Of a stretch of DNA of 64,000 nt, positions 1 to 63,777 are shown piece by piece. Under the pieces are notes generated by a model. It made no database searches and had not been told where the DNA came from. It was given only the letters and a program-made list of their open reading frames with translations. Source of the DNA: Eledone cirrhosa (Eukaryota); assembly GCA_964016885.1 (NCBI GenBank), contig OZ024744.1, positions 104,160,001 through 104,224,000 of the forward strand. The letters are read 5' to 3'. The translations under genes were made by a program, and so were the position numbers. How positions within the stretch are numbered: the first letter of the stretch is position 1; the number at the start of each line of letters is the position of its first letter.

Positions 1-3000
1 ACTGTCTAGAGATATATAGGAAGGGATAGCTGACAGGATATGGTTTATAACAGTTGAAGGTAGAATGTCTAGAGATATATAGGAAGGGATAGCTTACAGA
101 ATAAGGTTTATAACAGTTGAAGTTAGACTGTCTAGAGATATATAGGAAGGGATAGCTCACAGAATATGTTTTATAACAGTTGAAGGTAGACTCTCCAGAG
201 ATGTATGGGAAGGGATAACTTACATAATATGGTTTATAACAGTTGAAGGCAGACTATCTATAGGTGTATATGAAGGGATAGCTCACAGAATATGGTTTAT
301 AACAGTTGAAGGTAGACTGTCTAGAGATGTATAGGAAGGGCTAGCTCACATAATATGGTTTATAACAGTTGAAGGTAGACTGTCTAGAGATGTATAGGAA
401 GGGCTAGCTCACATAATATGGTTGATAACAGTTGAAGGCAGACTATCTATAGGTGTATATGAAGGGATAGCTCACAGAATATGGTTTATAACAGTTGAAG
501 GTAGACTATCTATAGGTGTATAGGAAGAGATAGCTCACAGAATATGGTTTATAACAGTTGAAGGTAGACTGTCTAGAGATGTATAGGAAGGGAGAGCTCC
601 CAGAATATAGTTTATAAGAGTTGAAGGTAGACTGTCTAGAGGTATATAGGAAGCGATAGCTCACAGAATATGGTTTATAACAGTTGAAGGTAGACTGTTT
701 AGAGATATATAGGAAGGGATAGCTGACAGGATATGTTTTATAACAGTTGAAGGTAGAATGTCTAGAGATATATAGGAAGGGATAGCTTACAGAATAAGGT
801 TTATAACAGTTGAAGTTAGACTGTCTAGAGATCTATAGGAAGGGATAGCTCACAGAATATGTTTTATAACAGTTGAAGGTAGACTCTCCAGACATGTATG
901 GGAAGGGATAACTTACATAATATGGTTTATAACAGTTGAAGGCAGACTATCTATAGGTGTATATGAAGGGATAGCTCACAGAATATGGTTTATAGCAGTT
1001 GAAGGTAGACTGTCTAGAGATGTATAGGAAGGGCTAGCTCACATAATATGGTTTATAACAGTTGAAGGTAGACTGTAGTGGTATATAGGAAGGGATAGAT
1101 TACAGAATATGGTTATTAACAGTTGAAGGTAGACTGTCTAGAGGTATATAGGATGGGATAGCTCACATAATATGGTTCATAACAGTTGAAGGTAGACTCT
1201 GTCTTGAGGTATATAGGAAGGGATAGCTTACAGAATATGGTTTATAACAGTTGAAAGTAGACTGTCTAGAGATATATAGGAAGGGATAGCTGACAGAATA
1301 TGGTTTATAACAGTTGAAGGTAGACTGTCGAGAGATATATAGGAAGGGATAGCTGACAGAATTTGGTTTATAACAGTTGAAGGTAGACTGCCTAGAGATG
1401 TATAGGAAGGGCTAGCTCACATAATATGGTTTATAACAGTTGAAGGTAGACTGTCTAGTGGTATATAGGAAGGGATAGATTACAGAATATGGTTATTAAC
1501 AGTTGAAGGTAGACCGTCTAGAGGTATATAGGATAGGATAGCTCACAGAATATGGTTTATAACAGTTGAAGGTAGACTGTCTAGAGATATATAGGAAGGG
1601 ATAGCTCACATAATATGGTTTATAACAGTTGAAGGTAGACTCTGTCTTGAGGTATATAGGAAGGGGTAGCTGACAGAATATGGTTTATAACAGTTGAAGG
1701 TAGACTCTGTCTAGAGATGTATAGGAAGGGATAGTTTACAGAATATGGTTTATAACAGTTGAAGGTAGACTGTCTAGAGATATATAGGAAGGGATAGCTG
1801 ACAGGATATGGTTTATAACAGTTGAAGGTAGAATGTCTATAGATATATAGGAAGGGATAGCTTACAGAATAAGCTTTATAACAGTTGAATTTAGACTGTC
1901 TAGAGATCTATAGGAAGGGATAGCTGACAGGATATGGTTTATAACAGTTGAAGGTAGAATGTCTAGAGATATATAGGAAGGGATAGCTTACAGAATAAGC
2001 TTTATAACAGTTGAAGGTAGACTGTCTAGAAGTATATAGGATCGGATAGCTCACATAATATGTTTTATAACAGTTGAAGGTAGACTCTGTCTTGAGGTAT
2101 ATAGGAAGGGATAGCTTACAGAATATGGTTTATAACAGTTGAAAGTAGACTGTCTAGTGATGTATAGGAAGGGATAGCTCACAGAATATGGTTTATAACA
2201 GTTGAATGTAGACTGTCTAGAGGTGTAGGGGAAGGGATAACTTACATAATATGGTTTATAACAGTTTAAGGTAGACTGTCTAGAGGTATATAGGAAGGGA
2301 TAGCTCACAGAATATGGTTTATAACAGTTGAAGGTAGACTGTCTCTAGAGCTGTACAGGAAGGGATAGCTGACAGAATATGGTTTATAACAGTTGAAGGT
2401 AGACTGTCTAGTGGTATATAGGAAGGGATAGCTCACAGAATATGGTTTATAACAGTTGAAGGTAGACTGTCTAGTGGTATATAGGAAGGGATAGCTCCCA
2501 GAATATGGTTTATAACAGTTGAAGGTAGACTGTCTAGAGGTGTAGGGGAAGGGATAACTTACATAATATGGTTTATAACAGTTGAAGGTAGACTGTCTAG
2601 AGGTGTATGGGAAGGGATAGCTTACAGAATATGGTTTATAACAGTTGAAGGTAGACTGTCTAGAGGTATATAGGAAGTGATAGCTCACAGAATATGGTTT
2701 ATAACAGTTGAAGGTAGACTGTCTAGAGGTATATAGGATGGGATAGCTCACAGAATATGGTTTATAACAGTTGAAGGTAGACTGTCTAGAGGTATATAGG
2801 AAGGGATAGCTGACAGAATATGGTTTATAACAGTTGAAGGTAGACTGTTTAGAGATATATAGGAAGGGATAGCTCACAGAATATGGTTTATGACAGTTGA
2901 AGGTAGACTGTCGAGAGATATATAGGAAGGGATAGCTGACGGAATATGGTTTATAACAGTTGAAGGTAGACTGTCGAGAGATATATAGGAAGGGATAGCT

Positions 3001-3779
3001 GACAGAATTTGGTTTATAACAGTTGAAGGTAGACTGTCTAGAGATGTATAGGAAGGGCTAGCTCACATAATATGGTTTATAACAGTTGAAGGTAGACTGT
3101 CTAGTGGTATATAGGAAGGGATAGATTACAGAATATGGTTATTAACAGTTGAAGGTAGACTGTCTAGAGATATATAGGAAGGGATAGCTCACAGAATATG
3201 GTTTATAACAGTTGAAGGTAGACTGTCTAGAGATATATAGGAAGGGATAGCTCACATAATATGGTTTATAACAGTTGAAGGTAGACTCTGTCTTGAGGTA
3301 TATAGGAAGGGGTAGCTGACAGAATATGGTTTATAACAGTTGAAGGTAGACTCTGTCTAGAGATGTATAGGAAGGGATAGTTTACAGAATATGGTTTATA
3401 ACAGTTGAAGGTAGACTGTCTAGTGATGTATAGGAAGGGATAGCTCACAGAATATGGTTTATAACAGTTGAAGGTAGACTCTGTCTAGAGGTATATAGGA
3501 AGGGATAGCTCACAGAATATGGTTTATAACAGTTGAATGTAGACTGTCTAGAGGTGTAGGGGAAGGGATAACTTACATAATATGGTTTATAACAGTTTAA
3601 GGTAGACTGTCTAGAGGTATATAGGAAGGGATAGCTCACAGAATATGGTTTATAACAGTTGAAGGTAGACTGTCTAGAGATATATAGGAAGGGATAGCTG
3701 ACAGGATATGGTTTATAACAGTTGAAGGTAGAATGTCTAGAGATATATAGGAAGGGATAGCTTACAGAATAAGCTTTAT

Positions 3780-6500
3780 AACAGTTGAAGTTAGACTGTC
3801 TAGAGATCTATAGGAAGGGATAGCTCACAGAATATGTTTTATAACAGTTGAAGGTAGACTGTCCAGAGATGTATGGGAAGGGATAACTTACATAATATGG
3901 TTTATAACAGTTGAAGGCAGACTATCTCTAGGTGTATAGGAAGGGATAGCTCACAGAATATGGTTTATAACAGTTGAAGGTAGACTTTCTAGAGATGTAT
4001 AGGAAGGGCTAGCTCACATAATATGGTTTATAACAGTTGAAGGTAGACTGTAGTGGTATATAGGAAGGGATAGATTACAGAATATGGTTATTAACAGTTG
4101 AAGGTAGACTGTCTAGAGGTATATAGGATGGGATAGCTCACATAATATGGTTTATAACAGTTGAAGGTAGACTCTGTCTTGAGGTATATAGGAAGGGATA
4201 GCTTACAGAATATGGTTTATAACAGTTCAAAGTAGACTGTCTAGAGATATATAGGAAGGGATAGCTGACAGAATATGGTTTATAACAGTTGAAGGTAGAC
4301 TCTCTCTAGAGCTGTACAGGAAGGGATAGCTGACAGAATATGGTTTATAACAGTTGAAGGTAGACTGTCTAGTGGTATATAGGAAGGGATAGCTGACAGA
4401 ATATGGTTTATAACAGTTGAAGGTAGACTGTCTAGAGGTATATAGGATGGGATAGCTGACAGAATATGGTTTATAACAGTTGAAGGTAGACTGTCTAGAG
4501 GTATATAGGATGGGATTGCTCACAGAATATGGTTTATAACAGTTGAAGGTAGAATGTCTAGAGATATATAGGATGGGATAGGTTACAGAATATGGTTTAT
4601 AACTGTTGAAGGTAGACTGTCTAAATATGTATAGGAAGGGATAGCTTACAGAATATGGTTTATAACAGTTGAAAGTAGACTGTCTAGAGAAGTATAGGAA
4701 GGGATAGCTCACAGAATATGGTTTATAACAGTTGAAGGTAGACTGTCTAGAGATGTATAGGAAGGGATAGCTTACAGAATATGGTTTATAACAGTTGAAG
4801 GTAGACTGTCTAGAGATGTATAGGAAGGGATAGCTCACAGAATATGGTTTATAACAGTTGAAAGTAGACTGTCTAGAGATGTATAGGAAGGGATAGCTCA
4901 CAGAATATGGTTTATAACAGTTGAAGGTAGACTGTCTAGAGATGTATAGGAAGGGATAGCTCACAGAATATGGTTTATGACAGTTGAAAGTAGACTGTCT
5001 AGAGATGTATAGGAAGGGATAGCTCACAGAATATGGTTTATAACAGTTGAAGGTAGACTGTCTAGAGATATATAGGAAGGGATAGCTCACAGAATATTGT
5101 TTATGACAGTTGAAAGTAGACTGTCTAGAGATGTATAGGAAGGGATAGCTCACAGAATATGGTTTATAACAGTTGAAGGTAGACTGTCTAGAGATGTATA
5201 AGAAGGGATAGCTTACAGAATATGGTTTATAACAGTTGAAGTTAGACTGTCTAGAGATCTATAGGAAGGGATAGCTCACAGAATATGTTTTATAACAGTT
5301 GAAGGTAGACTGTCCAGAGATGTATGGGAAGGGATAACTTACATAATATGGTTTATAACAGTTGAAGGCAGACTATCTCTAGGTGTATAGGAAGGGATAG
5401 CTCACAGAATATGGTTTATAACAGTTGAAGGTAGACTTTCTAGAGATGTATAGGAAGGGCTAGCTCACATAATATGGTTTATAACAGTTGAAGGTAGACT
5501 GTAGTGGTATATAGGAAGGGATAGATTACAGAATATGGTTATTAACAGTTGAAGGTAGACTGTCTAGAGGTATATAGGATGGGATAGCTCACATAATATG
5601 GTTTATAACAGTTGAAGGTAGACTCTGTCTTGAGGTATATAGGAATGGATAGCTTACAGAATATGGTTTATAACAGTTCAAAGTAGACTGTCTAGAGATA
5701 TATAGGAAGGGATAGCTGACAGAATATGGTTTATAACAGTTGAAGGTAGACTCTCTCTAGAGCTGTACAGGAAGGGATAGCTGACAGAATATGGTTTATA
5801 ACAGTTGAAGGTAGACTGTCTAGTGGTATATAGGAAGGGATAGCTGACAGAATATGGTTTATAACAGTTGAAGGTAGACTGTCTAGAGGTATATAGGATG
5901 GGATAGCTGACAGAATATGGTTTATAACAGTTGAAGGTAGACTGTCTAGAGGTATATAGGATGGGATTGCTCACAGAATATGGTTTATAACAGTTGAAGG
6001 TAGAATGTCTAGAGATATATAGGATGGGATAGGTTACAGAATATGGTTTATAACTGTTGAAGGTAGACTGTCTAAATATGTATAGGAAGGGATAGCTTAC
6101 AGAATATGGTTTATAACAGTTGAAAGTAGACTGTCTAGAGAAGTATAGGAAGGGATAGCTCACAGAATATGGTTTATAACAGTTGAAGGTAGACTGTCTA
6201 GAGATGTATAGGAAGGGATAGCTTACAGAATATGGTTTATAACAGTTGAAGGTAGACTGTCTAGAGATGTATAGGAAGGGATAGCTCACAGAATATGGTT
6301 TATAACAGTTGAAAGTAGACTGTCTAGAGATGTATAGGAAGGGATAGCTCACAGAATATGGTTTATAACAGTTGAAGGTAGACTGTCTAGAGATGTATAG
6401 GAAGGGATAGCTCACAGAATATGGTTTATGACAGTTGAAAGTAGACTGTCTAGAGATGTATAGGAAGGGATAGCTCACAGAATATGGTTTATAACAGTTG
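3780..6500. repeat. Higher-order duplication within the satellite, period 1451 bp (~23 monomers)
   Basis: ORFs ending at 4227 and 5678 share an identical C-terminal sequence (offset 1451). Shared rare variants include GTTCAAAG, CTCTCTAGAGCTGTAC and GACTGTAGTGG. Boundaries are approximate. Confidence 0.85.
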
Positions 6501-7084
6501 AAGGTAGACTATCTAGAGATATATAGGAAGGGATAGCTCACAGAATATGGTTTATGACAGTTGAAAGTAGACTGTCTAGAGATGTATAGGAAGGGATAGC
6601 TCACAGAATATGGTTTATAACAGTTGAAGGTAGACTGTCTAGAGATGTATAGGAAGGGATAGCTTACAGAATATGGTTTATAACAGTTGAAGGTAGACTG
6701 TCTAGAGATGTATAGGAAGGGATAGCTCACATAATATGGTTTATAACAGTTGAAGGTAGACTGTCTAGAGATGTATAGGAAGGGATAGCTCACAGAATAT
6801 GGTTTATAACAGTTGAAGGTAGACTGTCTAGAGATGTATAGGAAGGGATAGCTCACAGAATATGGTTTATAATAGTTGAAGGTAGACGCTGTCTAGAGGT
6901 ATATAGGAAGGGATAGCTTACAGAATATGGTTTATAACAGTTGAAGGTAGACTGTCTAGTGATGTATAGGAAGGGATAGCTCACAGAATATGGTTTGTAA
7001 CAGTTGAAGGTAGACTCTGTCTAGAGGTATATAGGAAGGGATAGCTCACAGAATATGGTTTATAAGAGTTGAAGGAAGACTGTC

Positions 7085-10000
7085 TAGAGGTGTAGGGGAA
7101 GGGATAACTTACATAATATGGTTTATAACAATTTAAGGTAGACTGTCTAGAGGTATATAGGAAGGGATAGCTCACAGAATATGGTTTATAACAGTTGAAG
7201 GTAGACTGTCTAGAGATCTATAGGAAGGGATAGCTCACAGAATATGGTTTATAACAGTTGAAAGTAGACTGTCTAGAGGTGTAGGGGAAGGGATAACTTA
7301 CATAATATGGTTTATAACAGTTTAAGGTAGAATGTCTAGAGATATATAGGTTGGGATAGCTTACAGAATAAGGTTTATAACAGTTGAAGTTAGACTGTCT
7401 AGAGATGTATAGGAATGGATAGCTCACAAAATATGGTTTATAACAGTTGAAGGTAGACTCTGTCTAGAGATATATAGGAAGGGATAGCTCACAGAATATG
7501 GTTTATAACAGTTGAAGGTAGACTGTCTAGAGGTATATAGGAAGGGATAACTCACAGAATATGGTTTATAACAGTTGAAGGTAGAATGTCTAGATATGTA
7601 TAGGAAGGGATAGCTCACATAATATGGTTTATAACAGTTGAAGGTAGACTGTCTAGAGATGTATAGGAAGGGATAGCTTACAGAATATGGTTTATAACAG
7701 TTGAAGGTAGACGCTGTCTAGAGGTATATAGGAAGGGATAGCTTACAGAATATGGTTTATAACTGTTGAAGGTAGACTGTCTAAATATGTATAGGAAGGG
7801 ATAGCTGACAGAATATGGTTTATAACAGTTGAAGGTAGACTGTCTAGAGATATATAGGAAGGGATAGCTCACAGAATATGGTTTATAACAGTTGAAGGTA
7901 GACTGTCTAGAGATATACAGGAAGGGATAGCTGACAGAATATGGTTTATAACAGTTGAAGGTAGACTGTCTAGAGATGTACAGGAAGGGATAGCTGACAG
8001 AATATGGTTTATAACAGTTGAAGTTAGACTGTCTAGAGGTATATAGGAAGCGATAGCTCACATAATATGGTTTATAACAGTTGAAGGTAGACTGTCTAGA
8101 GATGTACAGGGTGGGATAGCTGACAGAATATGGTTATTAACAGTTGAAGGTAGACTGTCTAGAGATATATAGGAAGGGATAGCTCACAGATTATGGTTTA
8201 TAACAGTTGAAGGTAGACTGTCTAGAGATATATAGGAAGGGATAGCTCCCAGAATATGGTTTATAACAGTTGAAGGTAGACTGTCTAGAGATGTATAGGA
8301 AGTGATAGCTCACAGAATATGGTTTATAACAGTTGAAGGTAGACTGTCTAGAGGTGTAGGGGAAGGGATAACTTACATAATATGGTTTATAACAGTTGAA
8401 GGTAGACTGTCTAGAGGTGTATGGGAAGGGATAGCTTACAGAATATGGTTTATAACAGTTGAAGGTAGACTGTCTAGAGGTATATAGGAAGGGATAGCTC
8501 ACAGAATATGGTTTATAACAGTTGAAGGTAGACTGTCTAGAGGTGTATGGGAAGGGATAGCTTACAGAATATGGTTTATAACAGTTGAAGGTAGACTGTC
8601 TAGAGGTATATAGGAAGGGATAGCTCACAGAATATGGTTTATAACAGTTGAAGGTAGACTGTCTAGAGATGTATAGGAAGGGATAGCTCACAGAATATGG
8701 TTTATAACAGTTGAAGGTAGAATGTCTAGAGGTATATAGGAAGGGATAGCTCACAGAATATGGTTTATAACAGTTGAAGGTAGAATGTCTAGAGGTATAT
8801 AGGAAGGGATAGCTCACAGAATATGGTTTATAACAGTCGAAGGTAGAATGTCTAGAGGTATATAGGAAGGGATAGCTCACAGAATATGGTTTATAACAGT
8901 TGAAGGTAGAATGTCTAGAGATATATAGGATGGGATAGGTTACAGAATATGGTTTATAACTGTTGATGGTAGACTGTCTAAATATGTATAGGAAGGGATA
9001 GCTTACAGAATATGGTTTATAACAGTTAAAGGTAGACTGTCTAGAGATGTATAGGAAGGGACAGCTCACAGAATATGGTTTATAACAGTTGAAAGTAAAC
9101 TGTCTAGAGAAGTATAGGAAGGGATAGCTCACAGAATATGGTTTATAACAGTTGAAGGTAGACTGTCTAGAGATGTATAGGAAGGGATAGCTTACAGAAT
9201 ATGGTTTATAACAGTTGAAGGTAGACTGTCTAGAGATGTATAGGAAGGGATAGCTCACAGAATATGGTTTATAACAGTTGACGGTAGACTGTCTAGAGAT
9301 ATATAGGAAGGGATAGCTCACAGAATATGGTTTATAACAGTTGAAAGTAGACTGTCTAGAGATGTATAGGAAGGGATAGCTCACAGAATATGGTTTATAA
9401 CAGTTGAAGGTAGACTGTCTAGAGATATATAGGAAGGGATAGCTTACAGAATATGGTTTATAACAGTTGCAGGTAGACTGTCTAGAGGTATATAGGAAGG
9501 GATAGCTCACAGAATATGGTTTATAACAGTTGAAGGTAGACTCTGTCTAGAGATGTAGAGCAAGGGATAGCTTACAGAATAAGGTTTATAACAGTTGAAG
9601 GTAGACTCTGTCCAGAGATGTATAGTAAGAGATAGCTCGCTGAATATGGTTTATAACAGTTGAAGGTAGACTGTCTAGAGATATATAAGAAGGGATAGCT
9701 GACAGAATATGGTTTATAACAGTTAAAGGTAGACTGTCTATAGATATATAGGAAGGAATAGCTTACAGAATATGGTTTATAACAGTTGAAGGTAGACTGT
9801 CTAGAGATATATAGGAAGGGATAGCTCACAGAATATGGTTTATAACAGTTGAAGGTAGACTGTCTAGAGATATATAGGAAGGGATAGCTCACAGAATATG
9901 GTTTATAACAGTTGAAGGTAGACTGTCTAGAGATATATAGGAAGGGATAGCTGACAGAATTTGGTTTATAACAGTTGAAGGTAGACTGTCTAGAGATGTA

Positions 10001-49425: not shown

Positions 49426-51169
49426 TTATGACAATTGAAGGTAGACTGTCTAGAGGTATATAGGAAGGGATAGCTCACAGAATATGGTTTATAACAGTTG
49501 AAGGTAGAATGTTTAGAGATATATAGGATGGGATAGCTTACAGAATATGGTTTATAACAGTTGAAGGTAGACTGTCTAGAGGTATATAGGATGGGATAGC
49601 TCACAGAATATGGTTTATAACAGTTGAAGGTAGAATGTCTAGAGATATATAGGATGGGATAGGTTTCAGAATATGGTTTATAACAGTTGAAGGTAGACTG
49701 TCTAGAGATATATAGGAAGGGATAGCTCACAGATTATGGTTTATAACAGTTGAAAGTAGAATGTGTAGAGATGTATAGGAAGGGATAGCTCACAGAATAT
49801 GGTTTATAACAGTTGAAGGTAGACTGTCTAGAGATGTATAGGAAGGGATAGCTTACAGAATATGGTTTAAAACAGTTGAAGGTAGACTGTCTAGAGATGT
49901 ATAGGGTGGGATAGGTTACAGAATATGGTTTATAACAGTTGAAGGTAGACTGTCTAGAGATATATAGGAAGGGATAGCTCACAGATTATGGTTTATAACA
50001 GTTGAAAGTAGAATGTGTAGAGATGTATAGGAAGGGATAGCTCACAGAATATGGTTTATAACAGTTGAAGGTAGACTGTCTAGAGATGTATAGGAAGGGA
50101 TAGCTTACAGAATATGGTTTAAAACAGTTGAAGGTAGACTGTCTAGAGATGTATAGGGTGGGATAGGTTACAGAATATGGTTTATAACAGTTGAAGGTAG
50201 ACTGTCTAGAGGTATATAGGAAGGGATAGCTTACAGAATATGGTTTATAACAGTTGAAGGTAGACTGTCTAGAGGTATATAGGAAGGGATAGCTCACAGA
50301 ATATGGTTTATAACAGTTGAAGGTAGACTGTCTAGAGATGTATAGGAAGGGATAGCTCACAGAATATGGTTTATAACAGTTGAAGGTAGACACTGTCTAG
50401 AGGTATATAGGAAGGGATAGCTTACAGAATATGGTTTATAACAGTTGAAGGTAGACTGTCTAGTGATGTATAGGAAGGGATAGCTCACAGAATATGGTTT
50501 ATAACAGTTGAAGGTAGACTCTGTCTAGAGGTATATAGGAAGGGATAGCTCACAGAATATGGTTTATAACAGTTGAAAGTAGACTGTCTAGAGATATATA
50601 GGAAGGGATAGCTCACAGAATATGGTTTATGACAGTTGAAAGTAGACTGTCTAGAGATGTATAGGAAGGGATAGCTCACAGAATATGGTTTATAACAGTT
50701 GAAGGTAGACTGTCTAGAGATATATAGGAAGGGATAGCTCACAGAATATGGTTTATGACAGTTGAAAGTAGACTGTCTAGAGATGTATAGGAAGGGATAG
50801 CTCACAGAATATGGTTTATAACAGTTGAAGGTAGACTGTCTAGAGATATATAGGAAGGGATAGCTCACAGAATATGGTTTATGACAGTTGAAAGTAGACT
50901 GTCTAGAGATGTATAGGAAGGGATAGCTCACAGAATATGGTTTATAACAGTTGAAGGTAGACTGTCTAGAGATGTATAGGAAGGGATAGCTTACAGAATA
51001 TGGTTTATAACAGTTGAAGGTAGACTGTCTAGAGATGTATAGGAAGGGATAGCTCACAGAATATGGTTTATAACAGTTGAAGGTAGACTGTCTAGAGATG
51101 TATAGGAAGGGATAGCTCACAGAATATGGTTTATAACAGTTGAAGGTAGACTCTGTCTAGAGGTATATA

Positions 51170-54100
51170 GGAAGGGATAGCTCACAGAATATGGTTTATA
51201 AGAGTTGCAGGTAGACTGTATAGAGGTGTAGGGGAAGGGATAACTTACATAATATGGTTTATAACAATTTAAGGTAGACTGTCTAGAGGTATATAGGAAG
51301 GGATAGCTCACAGAATATGGTTTATAACAGTTGAAGGTAGAATGTCGAGAGATATATAGGTTGGGATAGCTTACAGAATAAGGTTTATAACAGTTGAAAG
51401 TAGACTGTCTAGAGATATACAGGAAGGGATAGCTGACAGAATATGGTTTATAACAGTTGAAGGTAGACTCTGTCTAGAGATATATAGGAAGGGATAGCTC
51501 ACAGAATATGGTTTATGACAGTTGAAGGTAGACTGTCTAGAGGTATATAGGAAGGGATAGCTCACAGAATATGGTTTATAACAGTTGAAGGTAGAATGTT
51601 TAGAGATATATAGGATGGGATAGCTTACAGAATATGGTTTATAACAGTTGAAGGTAGACTGTCTAGAGGTATATAGGATGGGATAGCTCACAGAATATGG
51701 TTTATAACAGTTGAAGGTAGAATGTCTAGAGATATATAGGATGGGATAGGTTTCAGAATATGGTTTATAACAGTTGAAGGTAGACTGTCTAGAGATATAT
51801 AGGAAGGGATAGCTCACAGATTATGGTTTATAACAGTTGAAAGTAGAATGTGTAGAGATGTATAGGAAGGGATAGCTCACAGAATATGGTTTATAACAGT
51901 TGAAGGTAGACTGTCTAGAGATGTATAGGAAGGGATAGCTTACAGAATGTGGTTTAAAACAGTTGAAGGTAGACTGTCTAGAGATGTATAGGGTGGGATA
52001 GGTTACAGAATATGGTTTATAACAGTTGAAGGTAGACTGTCTAGAGGTATATAGGAAGGGATAGCTTACAGAATATGGTTTATAACAGTTGAAGGTAGAC
52101 TGTCTAGAGGTATATAGGAAGGGATAGCTCACAGAATATGGTTTATAACAGTTGAAGGTAGACTGTCTAGAGATGTATAGGAATGGATAGCTCACAGAAT
52201 ATGGTTTATAACAGTTGAAGGTAGACGCTGTCTAGAGGTATATAGGAAGGGATAGCTTACAGAATATGGTTTATAACAGTTGAAGGTAGACTGTCTAGTG
52301 ATGTATAGGAAGGGATAGCTCACAGAATATGGTTTATAACAGTTGAAGTTAGAATGTCTAGAGATCTATAGGAAGGGATAGCTCACAGAATATGGTTTAT
52401 AACAGTTGAAGGTAGACTTTCTACAGATATATAGGAAGGGATAGCTCACAGAATATGGTTTATAACAGTTGAAGGTAGACTGTCTAGAGATATATAGGAA
52501 GGGATAGCTCACAGAATATGGTTTATGACAGTTGAAAGTAGACTGTCTAGAGATGTATAGGAAGGGATAGCTCACAGAATATGGTTTATAACAGTTGAAG
52601 GTAGACTGTCTAGAGATATATAGGAAGGGATAGCTCACAGAATATGGTTTATGACAGTTGAAAGTAGACTGTCTAGAGATGTATAGGAAGGGATAGCTCA
52701 CAGAATATGGTTTATAACAGTTGAAGGTAGACTGTCTAGAGATGTATAGGAAGGGATAGCTTACAGAATATGGTTTATAACAGTTGAAGGTAGACTGTCT
52801 AGAGATGTATAGGAAGGGATAGCTCACAGAATATGGTTTATAACAGTTGAAGGTAGACTGTCTAGAGATGTATAGGAAGGGATAGCTCACAGAATATGGT
52901 TTATAACAGTTGAAGGTAGACGCTGTCTAGAGGTATATAGGAAGGGATAGCTTACAGAATATGGTTTATAACAGTTGAAGGTAGACTGTCTAGTGATGTA
53001 TAGGAAGGGATAGCTCACAGAATATGGTTTGTAACAGTTGAAGGTAGACTCTGTCTAGAGGTATATAGGAAGGGATAGCTCACAGAATATGGTTTATAAG
53101 AGTTGCAGGTAGACTGTATAGAGGTGTAGGGGAAGGGATAACTTACATAATATGGTTTATAACAATTTAAGGTAGACTGTCTAGAGGTATATAGGAAGGG
53201 ATAGCTCACAGAATATGGTTTATAACAGTTGAAGGTAGACTGTCTAGAGATCTATAGGAAGGGATAGCTCACAGAATATGGTTTATAACAGTTGAAAGTA
53301 GACTGTCTAGAGGTGTAGGGGAAGGGATAACTTACATAATATGGTTTATAACAGTTTCAGGTAGACTGTCTAGAGATGTATAGGAAGGGATAGCTGACAG
53401 GATATGGTTTATAACAGTTGAAGGTAGAATGTCGAGAGATATATAGGTTGGGATAGCTTACAGAATAAGGTTTATAACAGTTGAAAGTAGACTGTCTAGA
53501 GATATACAGGAAGGGATAGCTGACAGAATATGGTTTATAACAGTTGAAGGTAGACTCTGTCTAGAGATATATAGGAAGGGATAGCTCACAGAATATGGTT
53601 TATGACAGTTGAAGGTAGACTGTCTAGAGGTATATAGGAAGGGATAGCTCACAGAATATGGTTTATAACAGTTGAAGGTAGAATGTTTAGAGATATATAG
53701 GATGGGATAGCTTACAGAATATGGTTTATAACAGTTGAAGGTAGACTGTCTAGAGGTATATAGGATGGGATAGCTCACAGAATATGGTTTATAACAGTTG
53801 AAGGTAGAATGTCTAGAGATATATAGGATGGGATAGGTTTCAGAATATGGTTTATAACAGTTGAAGGTAGACTGTCTAGAGATATATAGGAAGGGATAGC
53901 TCACAGATTATGGTTTATAACAGTTGAAAGTAGAATGTGTAGAGATGTATAGGAAGGGATAGCTCACAGAATATGGTTTATAACAGTTGAAGGTAGACTG
54001 TCTAGAGATGTATAGGAAGGGATAGCTTACAGAATATGGTTTAAAACAGTTGAAGGTAGACTGTCTAGAGATGTATAGGGTGGGATAGGTTACAGAATAT

Positions 54101-57100
54101 GGTTTATAACAGTTGAAGGTAGACTGTCTAGAGGTATATAGGAAGGGATAGCTTACAGAATATGGTTTATAACAGTTGAAGGTAGACTGTCTAGAGGTAT
54201 ATAGGAAGGGATAGCTCACAGAATATGGTTTATAACAGTTGAAGGTAGACTGTCTAGAGATGTATAGGAATGGATAGCTCACAGAATATGGTTTATAACA
54301 GTTGAAGGTAGACGCTGTCTAGAGGTATATAGGAAGGGATAGCTTACAGAATATGGTTTATAACAGTTGAAGGTAGACTGTCTAGTGATGTATAGGAAGG
54401 GATAGCTCACAGAATATGGTTTATAACAGTTGAAGGTAGACTCTGTCTAGAGGTATATAGGAAGGGATAGCTCACAGAATATGGTTTATAACAGTTGAAG
54501 TTAGAATGTCTAGAGATCTATAGGAAGGGATAGCTCACAGAATATGGTTTATAACAGTTGAAGGTAGACTTTCTACAGATATATAGGAAGGGATAGCTCA
54601 CAGAATATGGTTTATAACAGTTGAAGGTAGACTGTCTAGAGATATATAGGAAGGGATAGCTCACAGAATATGGTTTATGACAGTTGAAAGTAGACTGTCT
54701 AGAGATGTATAGGAAGGGATAGCTCACAGAATATGGTTTATAACAGTTGAAGGTAGACTGTCTAGAGATATATAGGAAGGGATAGCTCACAGAATATGGT
54801 TTATGACAGTTGAAAGTAGACTGTCTAGAGATGTATAGGAAGGGATAGCTCACAGAATATGGTTTATAACAGTTGAAGGTAGACTGTCTAGAGATGTATA
54901 GGAAGGGATAGCTTACAGAATATGGTTTATAACAGTTGAAGGTAGACTGTCTAGAGATGTATAGGAAGGGATAGCTCACAGAATATGGTTTATAACAGTT
55001 GAAGGTAGACTGTCTAGAGATGTATAGGAAGGGATAGCTCACAGAATATGGTTTATAAGAGTTGCAGGTAGACTGTATAGAGGTGTAGGGGAAGGGATAA
55101 CATACATAATATGGTTTATAACAATTTAAGGTAGACTGTCTAGAGGTATATAGGAAGGGATAGCTCACAGAATATGGTTTATAACAGTTGAAGGTAGAAT
55201 GTCGAGAGATATATAGGTTGGGATAGCTTACAGAATAAGGTTTATAACAGTTGAAAGTAGACTGTCTAGAGATATACAGGAAGGGATAGCTGACAGAATA
55301 TGGTTTATAACAGTTGAAGGTAGACTCTGTCTAGAGATATATAGGAAGGGATAGCTCACAGAATATGGTTTATGACAGTTGAAGGTAGACTGTCTAGAGG
55401 TATATAGGAAGGGATAGCTCACAGAATATGGTTTATAACAGTTGAAGGTAGAATGTTTAGAGATATATAGGATGGGATAGCTTACAGAATATGGTTTATA
55501 ACAGTTGAAGGTAGACTGTCTAGAGGTATATAGGATGGGATAGCTCACAGAATATGGTTTATAACAGTTGAAGGTAGAATGTCTAGAGATATATAGGATG
55601 GGATAGGTTTCAGAATATGGTTTATAACAGTTGAAGGTAGACTGTCTAGAGATATATAGGAAGGGATAGCTCACAGATTATGGTTTATAACAGTTGAAAG
55701 TAGAATGTGTAGAGATGTATAGGAAGGGATAGCTCACAGAATATGGTTTATAACAGTTGAAGGTAGACTGTCTAGAGATGTATAGGAAGGGATAGCTTAC
55801 AGAATGTGGTTTAAAACAGTTGAAGGTAGACTGTCTAGAGATGTATAGGGTGGGATAGGTTACAGAATATGGTTTATAACAGTTGAAGGTAGACTGTCTA
55901 GAGGTATATAGGAAGGGATAGCTTACAGAATATGGTTTATAACAGTTGAAGGTAGACTGTCTAGAGGTATATAGGAAGGGATAGCTCACAGAATATGGTT
56001 TATAACAGTTGAAGGTAGACTGTCTAGAGATGTATAGGAATGGATAGCTCACAGAATATGGTTTATAACAGTTGAAGGTAGACGCTGTCTAGAGGTATAT
56101 AGGAAGGGATAGCTTACAGAATATGGTTTATAACAGTTGAAGGTAGACTGTCTAGTGATGTATAGGAAGGGATAGCTCACAGAATATGGTTTATAACAGT
56201 TGAAGTTAGAATGTCTAGAGATCTATAGGAAGGGATAGCTCACAGAATATGGTTTATAACAGTTGAAGGTAGACTTTCTACAGATATATAGGAAGGGATA
56301 GCTCACAGAATATGGTTTATAACAGTTGAAGGTAGACTGTCTAGAGATATATAGGAAGGGATAGCTCACAGAATATGGTTTATGACAGTTGAAAGTAGAC
56401 TGTCTAGAGATGTATAGGAAGGGATAGCTCACAGAATATGGTTTATAACAGTTGAAGGTAGACTGTCTAGAGATATATAGGAAGGGATAGCTCACAGAAT
56501 ATGGTTTATGACAGTTGAAAGTAGACTGTCTAGAGATGTATAGGAAGGGATAGCTCACAGAATATGGTTTATAACAGTTGAAGGTAGACTGTCTAGAGAT
56601 GTATAGGAAGGGATAGCTTACAGAATATGGTTTATAACAGTTGAAGGTAGACTGTCTAGAGATGTATAGGAAGGGATAGCTCACAGAATATGGTTTATAA
56701 CAGTTGAAGGTAGACTGTCTAGAGATGTATAGGAAGGGATAGCTCACAGAATATGGTTTATAACAGTTGAAGGTAGACGCTGTCTAGAGGTATATAGGAA
56801 GGGATAGCTTACAGAATATGGTTTATAACAGTTGAAGGTAGACTGTCTAGTGATGTATAGGAAGGGATAGCTCACAGAATATGGTTTGTAACAGTTGAAG
56901 GTAGACTCTGTCTAGAGGTATATAGGAAGGGATAGCTCACAGAATATGGTTTATAAGAGTTGCAGGTAGACTGTATAGAGGTGTAGGGGAAGGGATAACT
57001 TACATAATATGGTTTATAACAATTTAAGGTAGACTGTCTAGAGGTATATAGGAAGGGATAGCTCACAGAATATGGTTTATAACAGTTGAAGGTAGACTGT

Positions 57101-58910
57101 CTAGAGATCTATAGGAAGGGATAGCTCACAGAATATGGTTTATAACAGTTGAAAGTAGACTGTCTAGAGGTGTAGGGGAAGGGATAACTTACATAATATG
57201 GTTTATAACAGTTTCAGGTAGACTGTCTAGAGATGTATAGGAAGGGATAGCTGACAGGATATGGTTTATAACAGTTGAAGGTAGAATGTCGAGAGATATA
57301 TAGGTTGGGATAGCTTACAGAATAAGGTTTATAACAGTTGAAAGTAGACTGTCTAGAGATATACAGGAAGGGATAGCTGACAGAATATGGTTTATAACAG
57401 TTGAAGGTAGACTCTGTCTAGAGATATATAGGAAGGGATAGCTCACAGAATATGGTTTATGACAGTTGAAGGTAGACTGTCTAGAGGTATATAGGAAGGG
57501 ATAGCTCACAGAATATGGTTTATAACAGTTGAAGGTAGAATGTTTAGAGATATATAGGATGGGATAGCTTACAGAATATGGTTTATAACAGTTGAAGGTA
57601 GACTGTCTAGAGGTATATAGGATGGGATAGCTCACAGAATATGGTTTATAACAGTTGAAGGTAGAATGTCTAGAGATATATAGGATGGGATAGGTTTCAG
57701 AATATGGTTTATAACAGTTGAAGGTAGACTGTCTAGAGATATATAGGAAGGGATAGCTCACAGATTATGGTTTATAACAGTTGAAAGTAGAATGTGTAGA
57801 GATGTATAGGAAGGGATAGCTCACAGAATATGGTTTATAACAGTTGAAGGTAGACTGTCTAGAGATGTATAGGAAGGGATAGCTTACAGAATATGGTTTA
57901 AAACAGTTGAAGGTAGACTGTCTAGAGATGTATAGGGTGGGATAGGTTACAGAATATGGTTTATAACAGTTGAAGGTAGACTGTCTAGAGGTATATAGGA
58001 AGGGATAGCTTACAGAATATGGTTTATAACAGTTGAAGGTAGACTGTCTAGAGGTATATAGGAAGGGATAGCTCACAGAATATGGTTTATAACAGTTGAA
58101 GGTAGACTGTCTAGAGATGTATAGGAATGGATAGCTCACAGAATATGGTTTATAACAGTTGAAGGTAGACGCTGTCTAGAGGTATATAGGAAGGGATAGC
58201 TTACAGAATATGGTTTATAACAGTTGAAGGTAGACTGTCTAGTGATGTATAGGAAGGGATAGCTCACAGAATATGGTTTATAACAGTTGAAGGTAGACTC
58301 TGTCTAGAGGTATATAGGAAGGGATAGCTCACAGAATATGGTTTATAACAGTTGAAGTTAGAATGTCTAGAGATCTATAGGAAGGGATAGCTCACAGAAT
58401 ATGGTTTATAACAGTTGAAGGTAGACTTTCTACAGATATATAGGAAGGGATAGCTCACAGAATATGGTTTATAACAGTTGAAGGTAGACTGTCTAGAGAT
58501 ATATAGGAAGGGATAGCTCACAGAATATGGTTTATGACAGTTGAAAGTAGACTGTCTAGAGATGTATAGGAAGGGATAGCTCACAGAATATGGTTTATAA
58601 CAGTTGAAGGTAGACTGTCTAGAGATATATAGGAAGGGATAGCTCACAGAATATGGTTTATGACAGTTGAAAGTAGACTGTCTAGAGATGTATAGGAAGG
58701 GATAGCTCACAGAATATGGTTTATAACAGTTGAAGGTAGACTGTCTAGAGATGTATAGGAAGGGATAGCTTACAGAATATGGTTTATAACAGTTGAAGGT
58801 AGACTGTCTAGAGATGTATAGGAAGGGATAGCTCACAGAATATGGTTTATAACAGTTGAAGGTAGACTGTCTAGAGATGTATAGGAAGGGATAGCTCACA
58901 GAATATGGTT
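51170..58910. repeat. Tandem duplication, period 3857 bp (~61 monomers = 2087 + 1770 sub-units)
   Basis: ORF pairs 51371/55228, 51821/55678 (both with the private FKPH variant), 52366/56223, 53015/56872, 53458/57315, 53908/57765 and 54518/58375 are all offset by 3857. Confidence 0.92.
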
Positions 58911-61900
58911 TATAACAGTTGAAGGTAGACGCTGTCTAGAGGTATATAGGAAGGGATAGCTTACAGAATATGGTTTATAACAGTTGAAGGTAGACTGTCT
59001 AGTGATGTATAGGAAGGGATAGCTCACAGAATATGGTTTGTAACAGTTGAAGGTAGACTCTGTCTAGAGGTATATAGGAAGGGATAGCTCACAGAATATG
59101 GTTTATAAGAGTTGCAGGTAGACTGTATAGAGGTGTAGGGGAAGGGATAACTTACATAATATGGTTTATAACAATTTAAGGTAGACTGTCTAGAGGTATA
59201 TAGGTAGGGATAGCTCACAGAATATGGTTTATAACAGTTGAAGGTAGACTGTCTAGAGATCTATAGGAAGGGATAGCTCACAGAATATGGTTTATAACAG
59301 TTGAAAGTAGACTGTCTAGAGGTGTAGGGGAAGGGATAACTTACATAATATGGTTTATAACAGTTTCAGGTAGACTGTCTAGAGGTATATAGGAAGGGAT
59401 AGCTGACAGGATATGGTTTATAACAGTTGAAGGTAGAATGTCGAGAGATATATAGGTTGGGATAGCTTACAATATAAGGTTTATAACAGTTGAAAGTAGA
59501 CTGTCTAGAGATATACAGGAAGGGATAGCTGACAGAATATGGTTTATAACAGTTGAAGGTAGACTCTGTCTAGAGATATATAGGAAGGGATAGCTCACAG
59601 AATATGGTTTATGACAGTTGAAGGTAGACTGTCTAGAGGTATATAGGAAGGGATAGCTCACAGAATATGGTTTATGACAGTTGAAGGTAGACTGTCTAGA
59701 GGTATATAGGAAGGGATAGCTCACAGAATATGGTTTATAACAGTTGAAGGTAGACTGTCTAGAGGTATATAGGAAGGGATAGCTCACAGAATATGGTTTA
59801 TAACAGTTGAAGGTAGAATGTTTAGAGATATATAGGATGGGATAGCTTACAGAATATGGTTTATAACAGTTGAAGGTAGACTGTCTAGAGGTATATAGGA
59901 TGGGATAGCTCACAGAATATGGTTTATAACAGTTGAAGGTAGAATGTCTAGAGATATATAGGATGGGATAGGTTTCAGAATATGGTTTATAACAGTTGAA
60001 GGTAGACTGTCTAGAGATATATAGGAAGGGATAGCTCACAGATTATGGTTTATAACAGTTGAAAGTAGAATGTGTAGAGATGTATAGGAAGGGATAGCTC
60101 ACAGAATATGGTTTATAACAGTTGAAGGTAGACTGTCTAGAGATGTATAGGAAGGGATAGCTTACAGAATATGGTTTAAAACAGTTGAAGGTAGACTGTC
60201 TAGAGATGTATATGGTGGGATAGGTTACAGAATATGGTTTATAACAGTTGAAGGTAGACTGTCTAGAGGTATATAGGAAGGGATAGCTTACAGAATATGG
60301 TTTATAACAGTTGAAGGTAGACTGTCTAGAGGTATATAGGAAGGGATAGCTCACAGAATATGGTTTATAACAGTTGAAGGTAGACTGTCTAGAGATGTAT
60401 AGGAATGGATAGCTCACAGAATATGGTTTATAACAGTTGAAGGTAGACTGTCTAGAGGTGTAGGGGAAGGGATAACTTACAGAATATGGTTTATAACAGT
60501 TGAAGGTAGACTGTCTAGTGATGTATAGGAAGGGATAGCTCACAGAATATGGTTTATAACAGTTGAAGGTAGACTCTGTCTAGAGGTATATAGGAAGGGA
60601 TAGCTCACAGAATATGGTTTATAACAGTTGAAGTTAGAATGTCTAGAGATCTATAGGAAGGGATAGCTCACAGAATATGGTTTATAACAGTTGAAGGTAG
60701 ACTGTCTAGAGGTGTAGGGGAAGGGATAACTTACATAATATTGTTTATAACAGATTAAGGTAGACTGTCTAGAGGTATATAGGAAGGGATAGCTTACAGA
60801 ATAAGGTTTATAACAGTTGAAGGTAGACTGTTTTGTGGTATATAGTAAGGGATAGCTCCCAGAATATGGTTTATAACAGTTGAAGGTAGACTCTGTCTAG
60901 AGGAATATAGGAAGGGATTGCTTACAGAATATGGTTTATAACAGTTGAAGGTAGACCGTCTAGAGGTATATAGGATGGGATAGCTCACAGGATATGGTTT
61001 ATAACAGTTGAAAGTAGAATGTCTAGAGATATTGAGGAAGGGATAGCTCACAGAATATGGTTCATAACAGTTGAAGGTAGACTCTGTCTAGAGGTGTCGA
61101 GGAAGGGATAGCTTACAGTATATGGTTTATAACAGTTGAAGGTAGACTCTGTCCAGAGATGTATAGGAAGAGATAGCTCACAGAATATGGTTTATAACAG
61201 TTGAAGGTAGACTGTCTAGAGATATATAGGAAGGGATAGCTCACAGAATATGGTTTATAACAGTTGAAGGTAGACTCTGTCTAGAGGTATATAGGAAGGG
61301 ATAGCTTACAGAATATGGTTTATAACAGTTGAAGGTAGACTGTCTAGAGTTATATAGGAAGGGATAGCTTACAGAATATGGTTTATAACAGTTGAAGGTA
61401 GACTGTCTAGAGATATATAGGAAGGGATAGCTTACAGAATATGGTTTATAACAGTTGAAGGTAGACTGTCTAGAGATATATAGGAAGGGATAGCTCACAG
61501 AATATGGTTTATAACAGTTGAAGTTAGACTGTCTAGAGATATATAGGAAGGGATAGCTTACAGGATATGGTTTATAACAGCTGAAGGTAGACTTTCTACA
61601 GATATATAGGAAGGGATAGCTCACAGAATATGGTTTATAACAGTTGAAGGTAGACTGTCTAGAGGTATATAGGAAGGGATAGCTCACAGAATATGGTTTA
61701 TAACAGCTGAAGGTAGACTGTCTAGAGGTATATAGGAAGGGATAGCTTACAGAATATGGTTTATAACAGCTGAAGGTAGACTGTCTAGAGGTATATAGGA
61801 AGGGATAGCTCACAGAATATGGTTTATAATAGTTGAAGTTAGACTGTCTGCAGATGTACAGGAAGGGATAGCTCACAGAATATGCAAATGAACCTCTCCA

Positions 61901-61915
61901 ACATGTAGTATGCAG

Positions 61916-62160
61916 TAATAATAATAAAAATAATAATAATGAAATTAATGTGTAAAGTGCTCAGGTGCACTTCAACTTGTCAAAGGTGCATGTGTAGTAC
62001 ATAGAATTATATATAAATGTCAGGGAAGTGAACAGTGTATGAGTCATGATATACATGTGTGCATGTGTGTGGAGGGGGAACATTAGGTGTAGTGTTGGCG
62101 AATCTTGGGAAGCATGGAGGTTTTAAAGGATGCAGAGTCTCGACAGCTAACAACTGATGT
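61916..62160 (-). mobile_element. 5'-truncated non-LTR retrotransposon 3' end (CR1/L2-group-like): last ORF2 codons, 3' UTR and (TTA)n tail
   Basis: The minus strand from 62160 to 62083 reads TSVVSCRDSASFKTSMLPKIRQHYT*, resembling the CR1-group ORF2 C-terminal 'VV...S..SFK..L' motif. About 140 bp of UTR follows, then a (TTA)n-type tail (AATAATAAT on + at 61916-61940). Family call is from recall, not a search. Confidence 0.65.
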
Positions 62161-62449
62161 GTTAGTATGTTATAATGTGTTAGTATGTAGTAATGTGTTA
62201 GTATGTGGTAGTGTGTTAGTATGTAGTAATGTGTTAGTATGTTGTAGTGTGTTAGTATGTTATAATGTATTAGTATGTTGTAATCTGTTAGTATGTAGTA
62301 ATGTGTTAGTATGTTGTAGTGTGTTAGTATGTTATAATGTATTAGTATGTTGTAGTGTGTTAGTATGTAGTAATGTGTTAGTATGTTGTAGTGTGTTAGT
62401 ATGTAGTAATGTGTTAGTATGTAGTAATGTTGTAGCATGTTATAATGTG
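62157..62449. repeat. 18-bp minisatellite, ~16 copies (GTGTTAGTATG + TTATAAT/TAGTAAT/TTGTAGT)
   Basis: GTTAGTATG recurs every 18 bp. It produces the spurious THYNIL and VLVCSN hexapeptide ORFs. Confidence 0.97.
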
Positions 62450-62555
62450 ATGTAGTGTACCGTTGTATTGAAGTGAGATGTTGATATGGTGACAATTGTT
62501 TCAGTGAACATTATGCAACTACTATCTAAATAGTTTTAATACTTCTTTATTGTAG

Positions 62556-62662
62556 GAGGTAAAAGTTTGGGATGTTTTAACTGGAGCCTTTATCTCCCAG
62601 TTTGGCCATGCACATGGAGAAAAGTCTATCACTTGTATGAATTTTGATGAAAGTTTGAGAAG
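62556..62662 (+). CDS. Internal coding exon (107 bp, phase 0 to phase 2) of a WD40-repeat protein, most like the WDR49/WDR95/WDY-type (EF-hand/WD, ciliary/testis) family
   Basis: Acceptor ACTTCTTTATTGTAG ends at 62555 and donor AG|GTATGA starts at 62663. The stop-free translation is EVKVWDVLTGAFISQFGHAHGEKSITCMNFDESLR(R), which has the VKVWD end of one WD repeat, then AHG..ITCM.FD...RR starting the next. It has no start or stop codon. Subfamily call is from recall. Confidence 0.88.
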
Positions 62663-62732
62663 GTATGAATCACCATTTACAAACTCTGTCTATTCTGTTT
62701 ATATCTCTTAACATTTATCAATTGTATCTACA

Positions 62733-63049: not shown

Positions 63050-63188
63050 GGCAATGTGTTTCTAGTCAATATTGGTAAATTAAATCTATTAATTCAATAT
63101 TTATTGATTATATTTACCTAGTCAACATATATAAACTCTACTTATCTTGCTTTACACTGCACCTATGCAATTAACATAGGTAGATTAA

Positions 63189-63358: not shown

Positions 63359-63376
63359 TTAATTATCTAGAAAACA

Positions 63377-63712: not shown

Positions 63713-63777
63713 ATATTAGTAAAGAGGGATTGGATAAGCTACAATTTGTATATTTATTCAAATATTTATCAATATAT

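What the first reader, a model, noticed from the sequence alone, without database searches (positions are those of the whole stretch)
1..62662. A >62-kb satellite array probably fills one giant intron of a WD40 (WDR49/WDY-like) gene
Seen: the exon at 62556-62662 is internal. It has a 3' splice site, starts mid-WD repeat and lacks an ATG. Everything 5' of it on the + strand is satellite, LINE remnant, minisatellite or short AT-rich spacer, with no other credible exon. Inference: the preceding exon lies left of the window, so Pol II must transcribe about 1000 or more satellite monomers. Established parallel: Drosophila Y-linked fertility genes (kl-3, kl-5, ORY) have satellite-filled giant introns that form lampbrush-like Y-loops and need dedicated RNA-binding proteins, and WDY is a Y-linked WD40 fertility gene. 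A similar arrangement in a ciliary/testis-type WD gene of a probable cephalopod would be convergent intron gigantism.
Basis: partly seen in the sequence, partly recalled or inferred. Interest (0 to 1): 0.75.

Follow-up and report, generated by a model that had tools for sequence, protein, structure and literature searches.

The report
Satellite-filled intron on octopus Z chromosome
In an octopus-type genome, a 71,000-base predicted intron of an intact cilia and sperm-tail gene is almost wholly one repeat found nowhere else, but a housekeeping gene on the same chromosome, likely the Z sex chromosome, has a six-fold larger one, so this likely reflects repeat growth across that chromosome rather than a sperm-specific control like the fly Y loops.

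Summary
The 63-bp array spans 69.7 kb (1,103 copies, 7.8 kb left of the window) and fills 99% of a 70,969-bp GT-AG intron. The upstream exon lies 8.4 kb left of the window and joins 62556 in frame. The gene is CFAP337/WDR49, the family of fly WDY: 972 codons without a stop, 85% identical to the Octopus bimaculoides protein, spread over 300 kb, with three more introns swollen by different repeats. The chromosome carries four known cephalopod Z genes, so it is likely the Z. The Y-loop reading is only partly supported. 12 of 27 samples of this chromosome are pure tandem array (7 of 61 on autosomes), the housekeeping gene VPS15 there has a ~421-kb satellite intron, and the 19 dynein heavy chains, none on this chromosome, have a median span of 110 kb. 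Best reading: local repeat growth tolerated in introns, strongest on the Z arms, like avian 'sequence stuttering'. Splicing and transcription across the array were not observed. This scan has noted the same build before in other genes of this genome (VPS15, ALDH5A1, REXO5, CCDC42, DCP2).

The parts
1..62555 (+). Window part of predicted intron 14 of CFAP337/WDR49. The whole intron is 70,969 bp (C28:104151587-104222555), phase 0, GT..AG, 99% tandem repeat; it starts 8,414 bases left of the window, after exon 14 (109 bp, C28:104151478-104151586, donor GTAAGT)
   Evidence: tblastn with the O. bimaculoides protein and gene model; no RNA junction seen
1..61884 (.). Window part of the 63-bp satellite array; whole array 69,723 bp, 1,102.6 copies (C28:104152162-104221884), private to this locus
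   Evidence: all 374 exact genome-wide hits of a 30-base probe lie in it
61924..62159 (-). 3' end remnant of a LINE, antisense to the gene
   Evidence: matches 19 of 120 fetched loci; 85% identical to the stretch just downstream of an RVT_1 frame in L102
62157..62449 (.). 18-bp minisatellite, 16 copies
62556..62662 (+). CFAP337/WDR49 exon 15 (107 bp, phase 0 to phase 2), acceptor TTGTAG, donor GTATGA
62729..63050 (+). tRNA-derived SINE in intron 15
   Evidence: about 40 dispersed copies listed at 84-100%, a lower bound; weak tRNA model match at 62742-62799, E 0.007, below gathering score
63773..64000 (.). 26/32-bp minisatellite in intron 15, running on ~160 bases past the window

Best explanation
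The 63-bp array is a repeat private to this locus that fills 99% of a predicted 71-kb intron of an intact CFAP337/WDR49 gene, and it likely grew in place by repeated block duplication and is likely tolerated, not used, as one of many such arrays on what is likely the octopus Z chromosome. Steps. (1) Shown: the unit occurs only here, and the array is built of nested, near-identical blocks of 1-5.5 kb. (2) Inferred: a 63-bp piece of ordinary intron doubled, then grew by unequal exchange or replication slippage, recently and perhaps still. (3) Shown: growth stopped 576 bp from the donor and 672 bp from the acceptor, and the sense strand has no AATAAA or ATTAAA and no strong acceptor. (4) Inferred: polymerase II therefore reads through and the exons are joined by exon definition at a cost of extra time, so selection removes only arrays that break splicing. 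(5) Shown by sampling: such arrays are about four times commoner on this chromosome than on autosomes and lie on its two arms. (6) Inferred: weaker selection or less recombination on a Z that is unpaired in ZO females lets them build up whatever the gene does.
For: Private unit: 374 of 374 genome-wide probe hits in this array. Each swollen intron of the gene has its own unit: intron 5 69,115 bp with a 21-mer, intron 12 37,193 bp with another 21-mer and a 58-mer, intron 3 17,241 bp. Block duplications: 5,461 bp with 4 mismatches, 3,813 bp with 0, while monomers differ ~9% pairwise. Gene intact: 23 modelled exons, 972 codons, no stop, 85% identity. Z: EIF5, PRPS1-type, OCIAD1 and amnionless on C28 at 55-59 Mb, listed as Z-linked in PMC10925132 Table S6 and bioRxiv 2024.12.09.627507. 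Baseline: 10-kb samples wholly array 12 of 27 on C28, 7 of 61 on autosomes, Fisher p=0.0013; arrays of 5 kb or more in 13 of 18 arm samples and 0 of 9 central ones. Housekeeping control: PIK3R4/VPS15 on C28 has consecutive exons ~420.7 kb apart with one 41-mer at both ends and in the middle. Ciliary control: 19 dynein heavy chains, none on C28, median span 110 kb. The autosomal paralogue on C15 spans ~12 kb.
Against: The junction is predicted, not observed. C28 against autosome ends alone is not significant (12 of 27 vs 3 of 20, p=0.056), so a chromosome-arm effect may matter as much as Z status. Samples were hand-placed at round coordinates, not random. The gene (65% tandem repeat) is richer than its 100-kb flanks (30% and 50%). 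Some ciliary genes on autosomes are also large: DNAH12-like 453 kb, DNAH6-like 408 kb, DNAH5/8-type 248 kb, though only 1 of 6 samples inside the two largest was array. Hemizygosity of C28 was not measured. Only about 26 of ~421 kb of the VPS15 intron was read.
Confidence: 0.72

Rival explanations
1. Y-loop-like functional gigantism: the Z is enriched in males, and sperm-tail genes on it have acquired or kept satellite introns that act as a timer or form lampbrush-like loops with dedicated RNA-binding proteins in spermatocytes.
For: The gene is in the family of fly WDY, a Y-linked fertility gene (PMC6761771; PMC10786823); four introns are swollen and 65% of 300 kb is tandem repeat; the gene is more repeat-rich than its flanks; it lies on a likely sex chromosome, while the autosomal paralogue is compact.
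Against: 71 kb is far below the fly megabase class, and genes with 50-100-kb introns behaved as controls in PMC11207136. VPS15 on the same chromosome has a larger satellite intron. The outer-arm beta dynein checked spans 48 kb. The unit is private, so no shared sequence exists for one protein to bind across genes.
Confidence: 0.1
2. The array is real but its length is inflated by assembly error (blocks assembled twice, or two haplotypes laid in tandem).
For: A 3,813-bp block is repeated with 0 mismatches and a 5,461-bp block with 4; 24% of the array (16.7 kb) lies in exact 1,000-base words seen earlier in it.
Against: No N in 364 kb; exons stay colinear on both sides; 308 distinct monomers and many overlapping duplications of graded divergence (0-0.9%) fit stepwise growth; removing all exact 1-kb repeats still leaves ~53 kb.
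Confidence: 0.12
3. The array impairs the gene: transcripts stall or mis-splice in intron 14, and the gene is silent or decaying.
For: 243 donor-like sites on the sense strand of the array score at least as well as the real donor in a small matrix; identity to the O. bimaculoides protein (85%) is lower than that of the best-matched VPS15 exons (95-98%).
Against: 972 codons without a stop, AG/GT at the modelled sites around introns 1-22, and well-conserved exons on both sides of the array; no strong acceptor in the array to pair with the decoy donors; no second close copy of the gene was found.
Confidence: 0.06

Closest known systems
Avian intronic 'sequence stuttering' on dot chromosomes (PMC12954441; abstract, first parts of sections 7 and 9 read)
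   Same: Each intron holds its own locally expanded unit of tens of bases; exons stay intact; the effect follows the chromosome, and paralogues elsewhere are spared (here C28 copy 300 kb, C15 paralogue 12 kb).
   Different: Here a large, AT-rich, likely Z chromosome with SINEs and LINEs, not small GC-rich dot chromosomes without interspersed repeats; arrays reach 60-420 kb; no exon-derived units found in this gene; length variation among individuals untested.
Drosophila Y-loop genes kl-3, kl-5, ORY and Y-linked WDY (PMC6508621, 12 passages; PMC11207136, 12 passages; PMC10786823, 6 passages)
   Same: Axonemal gene on a sex chromosome with satellite-filled introns; same protein family as WDY.
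   Different: Fly genes exceed 4 Mb with simple 5-bp satellites; this gene is 0.3 Mb with 21-63-bp units; Z (present in both sexes) rather than Y; housekeeping genes on the chromosome are affected too; no loop or binding protein shown. The passages read tie the three loops to kl-5, kl-3 and ORY, not WDY.
CFAP337/FAP337/WDR49 axonemal protein (bioRxiv 2023.05.31.543107, 6 passages; PMC6761771, 8 passages)
   Same: Orthologue-level similarity over nearly the whole length; WD40 propeller protein that in Tetrahymena and Chlamydomonas sits with CFAP57 and CCDC96/113 and supports inner-arm dyneins.
   Different: Function and expression in octopus untested; gene is ~300 kb and likely Z-linked.
Cephalopod Z chromosome (PMC10925132, parts 1-2 of 5 and supplement passages)
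   Same: Carries EIF5, PRPS1, OCIAD1 and amnionless.
   Different: Reported signature is LINE enrichment on a chromosome plotted to about 55 Mb; here 136.5 Mb, with 13 of 27 samples holding arrays of 5 kb or more.

Membership tests
CFAP337/WDR49 (FAP337 family) | Full-length similarity to named CFAP337/WDR49 proteins, closer than to WDR64 | tested here: met
   The O. bimaculoides orthologue hits molluscan and vertebrate CFAP337-named proteins at about 41-52% over 95-100%; the solved WDR64 chain only E 2e-36; 6 of 6 test proteins, 5 of them named CFAP337, score 1.8-2.8 times higher on C28 than on the C15 paralogue
CFAP337/WDR49 (FAP337 family) | Intact frame with WD40 repeats | tested here: met
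   972 codons, no stop; WD40 hit on the O. vulgaris orthologue
CFAP337/WDR49 (FAP337 family) | One-to-one orthology with fly WDY | not tested
   Taken from PMC6761771; no tree built, and this genome has a second family member on C15
Drosophila Y-loop gigantic genes | Introns of hundreds of kb to Mb; gene of several Mb | tested here: not met
   Largest intron 70,969 bp, gene 299.7 kb against >4 Mb (PMC11207136)
Drosophila Y-loop gigantic genes | Introns filled by satellite DNA | tested here: met
   99%, 90%, 85% and 79% tandem repeat in four introns
Drosophila Y-loop gigantic genes | On a male-limited chromosome and confined to fertility genes | tested here: not met
   Likely Z, present in both sexes; VPS15 there has a ~421-kb satellite intron
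Drosophila Y-loop gigantic genes | Lampbrush-like loops and dedicated RNA-binding proteins in spermatocytes | not testable with these tools
   Needs RNA-FISH and protein work
Intronic sequence stuttering | Units of local origin, different in each intron, exons intact | tested here: met
   genome-wide privacy tested for the 63-mer only, the two 21-mers only among 120 fetched loci
Intronic sequence stuttering | Concentrated on particular chromosomes, paralogue elsewhere spared | tested here: met
   12 of 27 vs 7 of 61 samples; C15 paralogue ~12 kb; weaker against autosome ends (p=0.056)
Intronic sequence stuttering | Large length variation among individuals | not testable with these tools
   No long reads of other individuals were listed
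Intronic sequence stuttering | Occasional exon-derived units; GC-rich setting | tested here: not met
   16 exons tested, none amplified in introns; region is 37% GC
Cephalopod Z chromosome | Carries the conserved Z gene block | tested here: met
   4 of 5 markers searched map to C28; the SPAG9 domain model found nothing anywhere
Cephalopod Z chromosome | Half coverage in females | not tested
   No sexed coverage comparison was run

The most novel reading that the evidence does not exclude
In this octopod lineage the ancient Z chromosome has more than doubled (about 57 to 136 Mb) through intron-private satellites, and the WDY-family gene has independently ended up on a male-enriched sex chromosome with satellite-swollen introns; in spermatocytes such Z genes form lampbrush-like loops and depend on a gigantic-gene expression programme, a Z-chromosome counterpart of the fly Y loops.
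Probability: 0.1. Interest if true: 0.75.

Novelty: new member of a known kind. Interest (0 to 1): 0.38.

Why it matters
Taken alone this is one more satellite-filled intron. Its value is as a test case: it puts the WDY-family gene on a second, independently evolved sex chromosome and shows with controls that its gigantism likely follows the chromosome and not the gene class. That supports the view that giant satellite introns arise passively on sex chromosomes, with any regulation coming later. The chromosome-wide pattern (a cephalopod Z swollen by intron-private repeats) was not found in four paper searches and is the part worth a systematic study; short-read assemblies would miss it.

Tried and rejected
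RNA evidence: no RNA holder listed for window 61500-63700; run X4 (kind not on record) gave no cover of exon 15 or exon 14; X1 and X2 cover them but may be the source DNA; X5, X6, X8 and X21 gave nothing on the exons laid. None of this counts for or against expression. A coding role for the array: + strand frames stop within 62 codons; - strand frames run up to 451 codons of pure 21-residue repeat, not followed up as a gene. Exon stuttering: none among 16 exons. Strand-biased avoidance of splice signals: a motif count suggested it (GTRAG 14 sense vs 929 antisense) but a matrix built from the gene's own sites found about 240 donor-like sites on the sense strand against 67, so it was dropped. 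Lack of poly(A) signals is expected by chance for one 63-bp unit, and another array in the gene has 54 on the sense strand. No common strand skew among 11 arrays. Recursive splicing: AGGT is frequent (1,282) but has no pyrimidine tract before it. A fixed higher-order repeat: only a weak dimer signal. Centromeric or genome-wide satellite family: rejected, the unit is private. SPAG9 as Z marker: the Pfam model found nothing. Rfam on 60000-64000: only the SINE's tRNA-like head. Supplements of the bioRxiv dosage-compensation preprint were not seen and may list this gene's linkage and sex-biased expression.

Full report
What is in the window. Positions 1-61884 are one tandem array of a 63-bp unit, 978.7 copies at 91% matches, with flat 37% GC and a GC skew near +0.5. 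977 monomers were placed by sliding match; 840 spacings are 63 bp and 123 are 65 bp, and nothing foreign interrupts the array. After it come a 236-bp antisense LINE 3' remnant (85% identical to the stretch just downstream of an RVT_1 frame elsewhere on the chromosome), an 18-bp minisatellite, the 107-bp exon at 62556-62662, a tRNA-derived SINE and a further minisatellite.

The missing exon exists. The window is G000:C28:104160001-104224000 in a 3.0-Gb genome. The array starts about 7.8 kb left of the window and totals 69,723 bp, 1,102.6 copies. The window peptide is 89% identical to residues 444-478 of an O. bimaculoides protein whose cluster is named WD repeat-containing protein 49. Its exons map in order on the + strand on both sides of the array. 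An alignment-guided model gives 23 exons, 972 codons without a stop, 85% identical to the O. bimaculoides and 83% to the O. vulgaris protein. The donor of exon 23 is uncertain, residues 874-901 of the orthologue were not placed, and a terminal exon lies at C28:104294487-104294672. Exon 14 (C28:104151478-104151586) ends before GTAAGT, 70,969 bp before the window exon, in phase 0, and the junction peptide aligns without a gap. The junction is predicted; no RNA read was seen.

The gene. Best relatives are molluscan and vertebrate proteins named CFAP337, WDR49 or WDY-like, a few WDR64-like; the solved WDR64 chain is distant. Six test proteins, five named CFAP337, score about twice as high here as on the paralogue at C15:1.905-1.918 Mb. 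FAP337 works with FAP57 to stabilise inner-arm dyneins, and PMC6761771 names WDY as its fly orthologue (passages; also bioRxiv 2023.05.31.543107, passages). The gene spans 299.7 kb, 65% tandem repeat. The median of 22 introns is 3.6 kb, but four repeat-filled ones are 71.0, 69.1, 37.2 and 17.2 kb, each with different units; a fifth large intron (20.5 kb) is only 9% tandem repeat. The C15 paralogue's matched exons span ~12 kb.

How the array grew. A 30-base probe has 374 exact hits in the genome, all on one strand, and the fetched region holds 374, so the unit is private. Monomers differ ~9% pairwise at all distances, yet blocks of 1-5.5 kb recur at 0-0.9% divergence at irregular offsets. That is the pattern expected of stepwise block duplication (inference). 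It also means the exact length could be inflated by assembly: 16.7 kb lies in exact 1,000-base repeats. The array stops 576 bp from the donor and 672 bp from the acceptor, has no AATAAA or ATTAAA on the sense strand, and no AG site in it reaches the median of the gene's acceptors, although 243 GT sites match the real donor's score (matrix from only 22 sites). So nothing in the sequence should define a false exon or end the transcript. At a recalled elongation rate of 1-2 kb per minute the intron would add roughly an hour.

The chromosome is likely the Z. C28 is 136.5 Mb but is numbered after C26 (23.8 Mb) and C27 (22.4 Mb), and C29 and C30 are ~50 kb; numbering is not strictly by size (C16 is 0.8 Mb). 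EIF5, a PRPS1-type C-terminal exon, OCIAD1 and amnionless map to C28:55-59 Mb (EIF5 and PRPS1 told from their paralogues by recalled motifs). The first three are in the conserved Z block of PMC10925132 Table S6; amnionless is Z-linked in bioRxiv 2024.12.09.627507 (passages). A fifth marker model (SPAG9) found nothing anywhere. In O. bimaculoides this gene and PIK3R4 are both recorded on a contig of 57,524,431 bp, in keeping with the Z axis of Fig. S8, whose ticks run to 55 Mb. Hemizygosity was not measured, and a fusion with an autosome is not excluded.

Is the gene special? Three controls say mostly not. (1) Baseline: of 27 hand-spaced 10-kb samples of C28, 12 are wholly one array and 13 hold one of 5 kb or more; of 61 autosomal samples, 7 and 11 (p=0.0013 and 0.008). 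Against 20 autosome-end samples alone the gap is not significant (p=0.056). Stretches fetched for marker genes were left out of these counts. On C28 the arrays lie on the arms: 6 of 9, 0 of 9 and 7 of 9 samples. (2) Housekeeping gene: following a lead from this scan's notes, I confirmed that consecutive PIK3R4/VPS15 exons on C28 lie ~420.7 kb apart with the same 41-mer at both ends and at a middle sample. (3) Ciliary genes: 19 dynein heavy-chain loci were paired from two domain searches (one lone C-terminal hit on C19 left out). None is on C28; spans between the two domains are 36-453 kb, median 110 kb, for about three times the coding length. One DNAH9/17-type gene (kl-5 class, recalled) spans 48 kb; a DNAH5/8-type gene (kl-3 class, recalled) 248 kb; the two largest are DNAH12-like and DNAH6-like, with 1 of 6 inner samples array. 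Five of 19 were classified. Against the passive reading, the gene is richer in repeats than its flanks (65% vs 30% and 50%).

Comparison. Fly Y-linked giants exceed 4 Mb, and in PMC11207136 genes with 50-100-kb introns did not respond as giants (passages); the loops need Blanks and Heph and belong to kl-5, kl-3 and ORY (PMC6508621, passages). This locus meets one Y-loop criterion (satellite fill), fails two (size, confinement to fertility genes on a male-limited chromosome) and leaves the cytology untested. It fits chicken 'sequence stuttering' better (PMC12954441): intron-private units, intact exons, chromosome-bound, paralogue spared; it differs in base composition, scale and the lack of exon-derived units, and polymorphism is untested, so it works like stuttering without being filed as a member. 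Four searches found no paper on satellite-filled introns or a satellite-swollen Z in cephalopods (listings only; the library lacks most subscription papers). PMC13122204 (9 passages) added nothing on this gene.

Verdict. A real array in a predicted 71-kb intron of an intact, likely Z-linked CFAP337 gene; most likely passive local growth typical of this chromosome's arms (0.72). The Y-loop parallel stays possible (0.10) and is directly testable. The scan has already recorded the same build in several other genes of this genome. Interest 0.38.

Noticed in passing
G000:C28:104024670-104085508 (L021-L024, L008-L010): A second 60.8-kb array (21-bp unit, 2,894 copies) starts 33 bp after the donor of exon 5 of the same gene.
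   Followed up: partly
G000:C28:104127402-104148448 (L002-L004): A 21-kb array of another 21-mer ends 80 bp before the acceptor of exon 13, leaving just the pyrimidine tract; a 58-mer array starts 120 bp after exon 12.
   Followed up: partly
L001:1-1040, window 62113-62159 and L011:3624-3871: One 61-bp piece of the LINE 3' end has been tandemly amplified independently in intron 13 (24 copies) and intron 15 (4 copies, opposite orientation), a likely stutter-prone seed.
   Followed up: partly
G000:C28 130 Mb and 135 Mb; C18 10 Mb (L118, L060, L157): The same 16-bp telomere-like unit fills whole 10-kb samples on two chromosomes, so not every array is private.
   Followed up: no
G000:C19:6705821-6811056: Two dynein heavy-chain genes (one classified as outer-arm beta type) lie tail to tail with near-identical domain scores, a recent inverted duplication or an assembly duplicate; a further C-terminal piece lies at 6840816.
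   Followed up: no
G000:C15:1905297-1917609 (L033-L034): A compact second FAP337-family gene; it lacks an intron at the position of intron 14.
   Followed up: partly
G000:C28 45-90 Mb: The central part of C28, which holds the conserved Z genes, had no array of 5 kb or more in 9 of 9 samples, whereas both arms are array-rich.
   Followed up: partly
G000:C1256:10099-11494: A PRPP-synthetase-family match on an unplaced contig, possibly a stray copy or foreign DNA.
   Followed up: no
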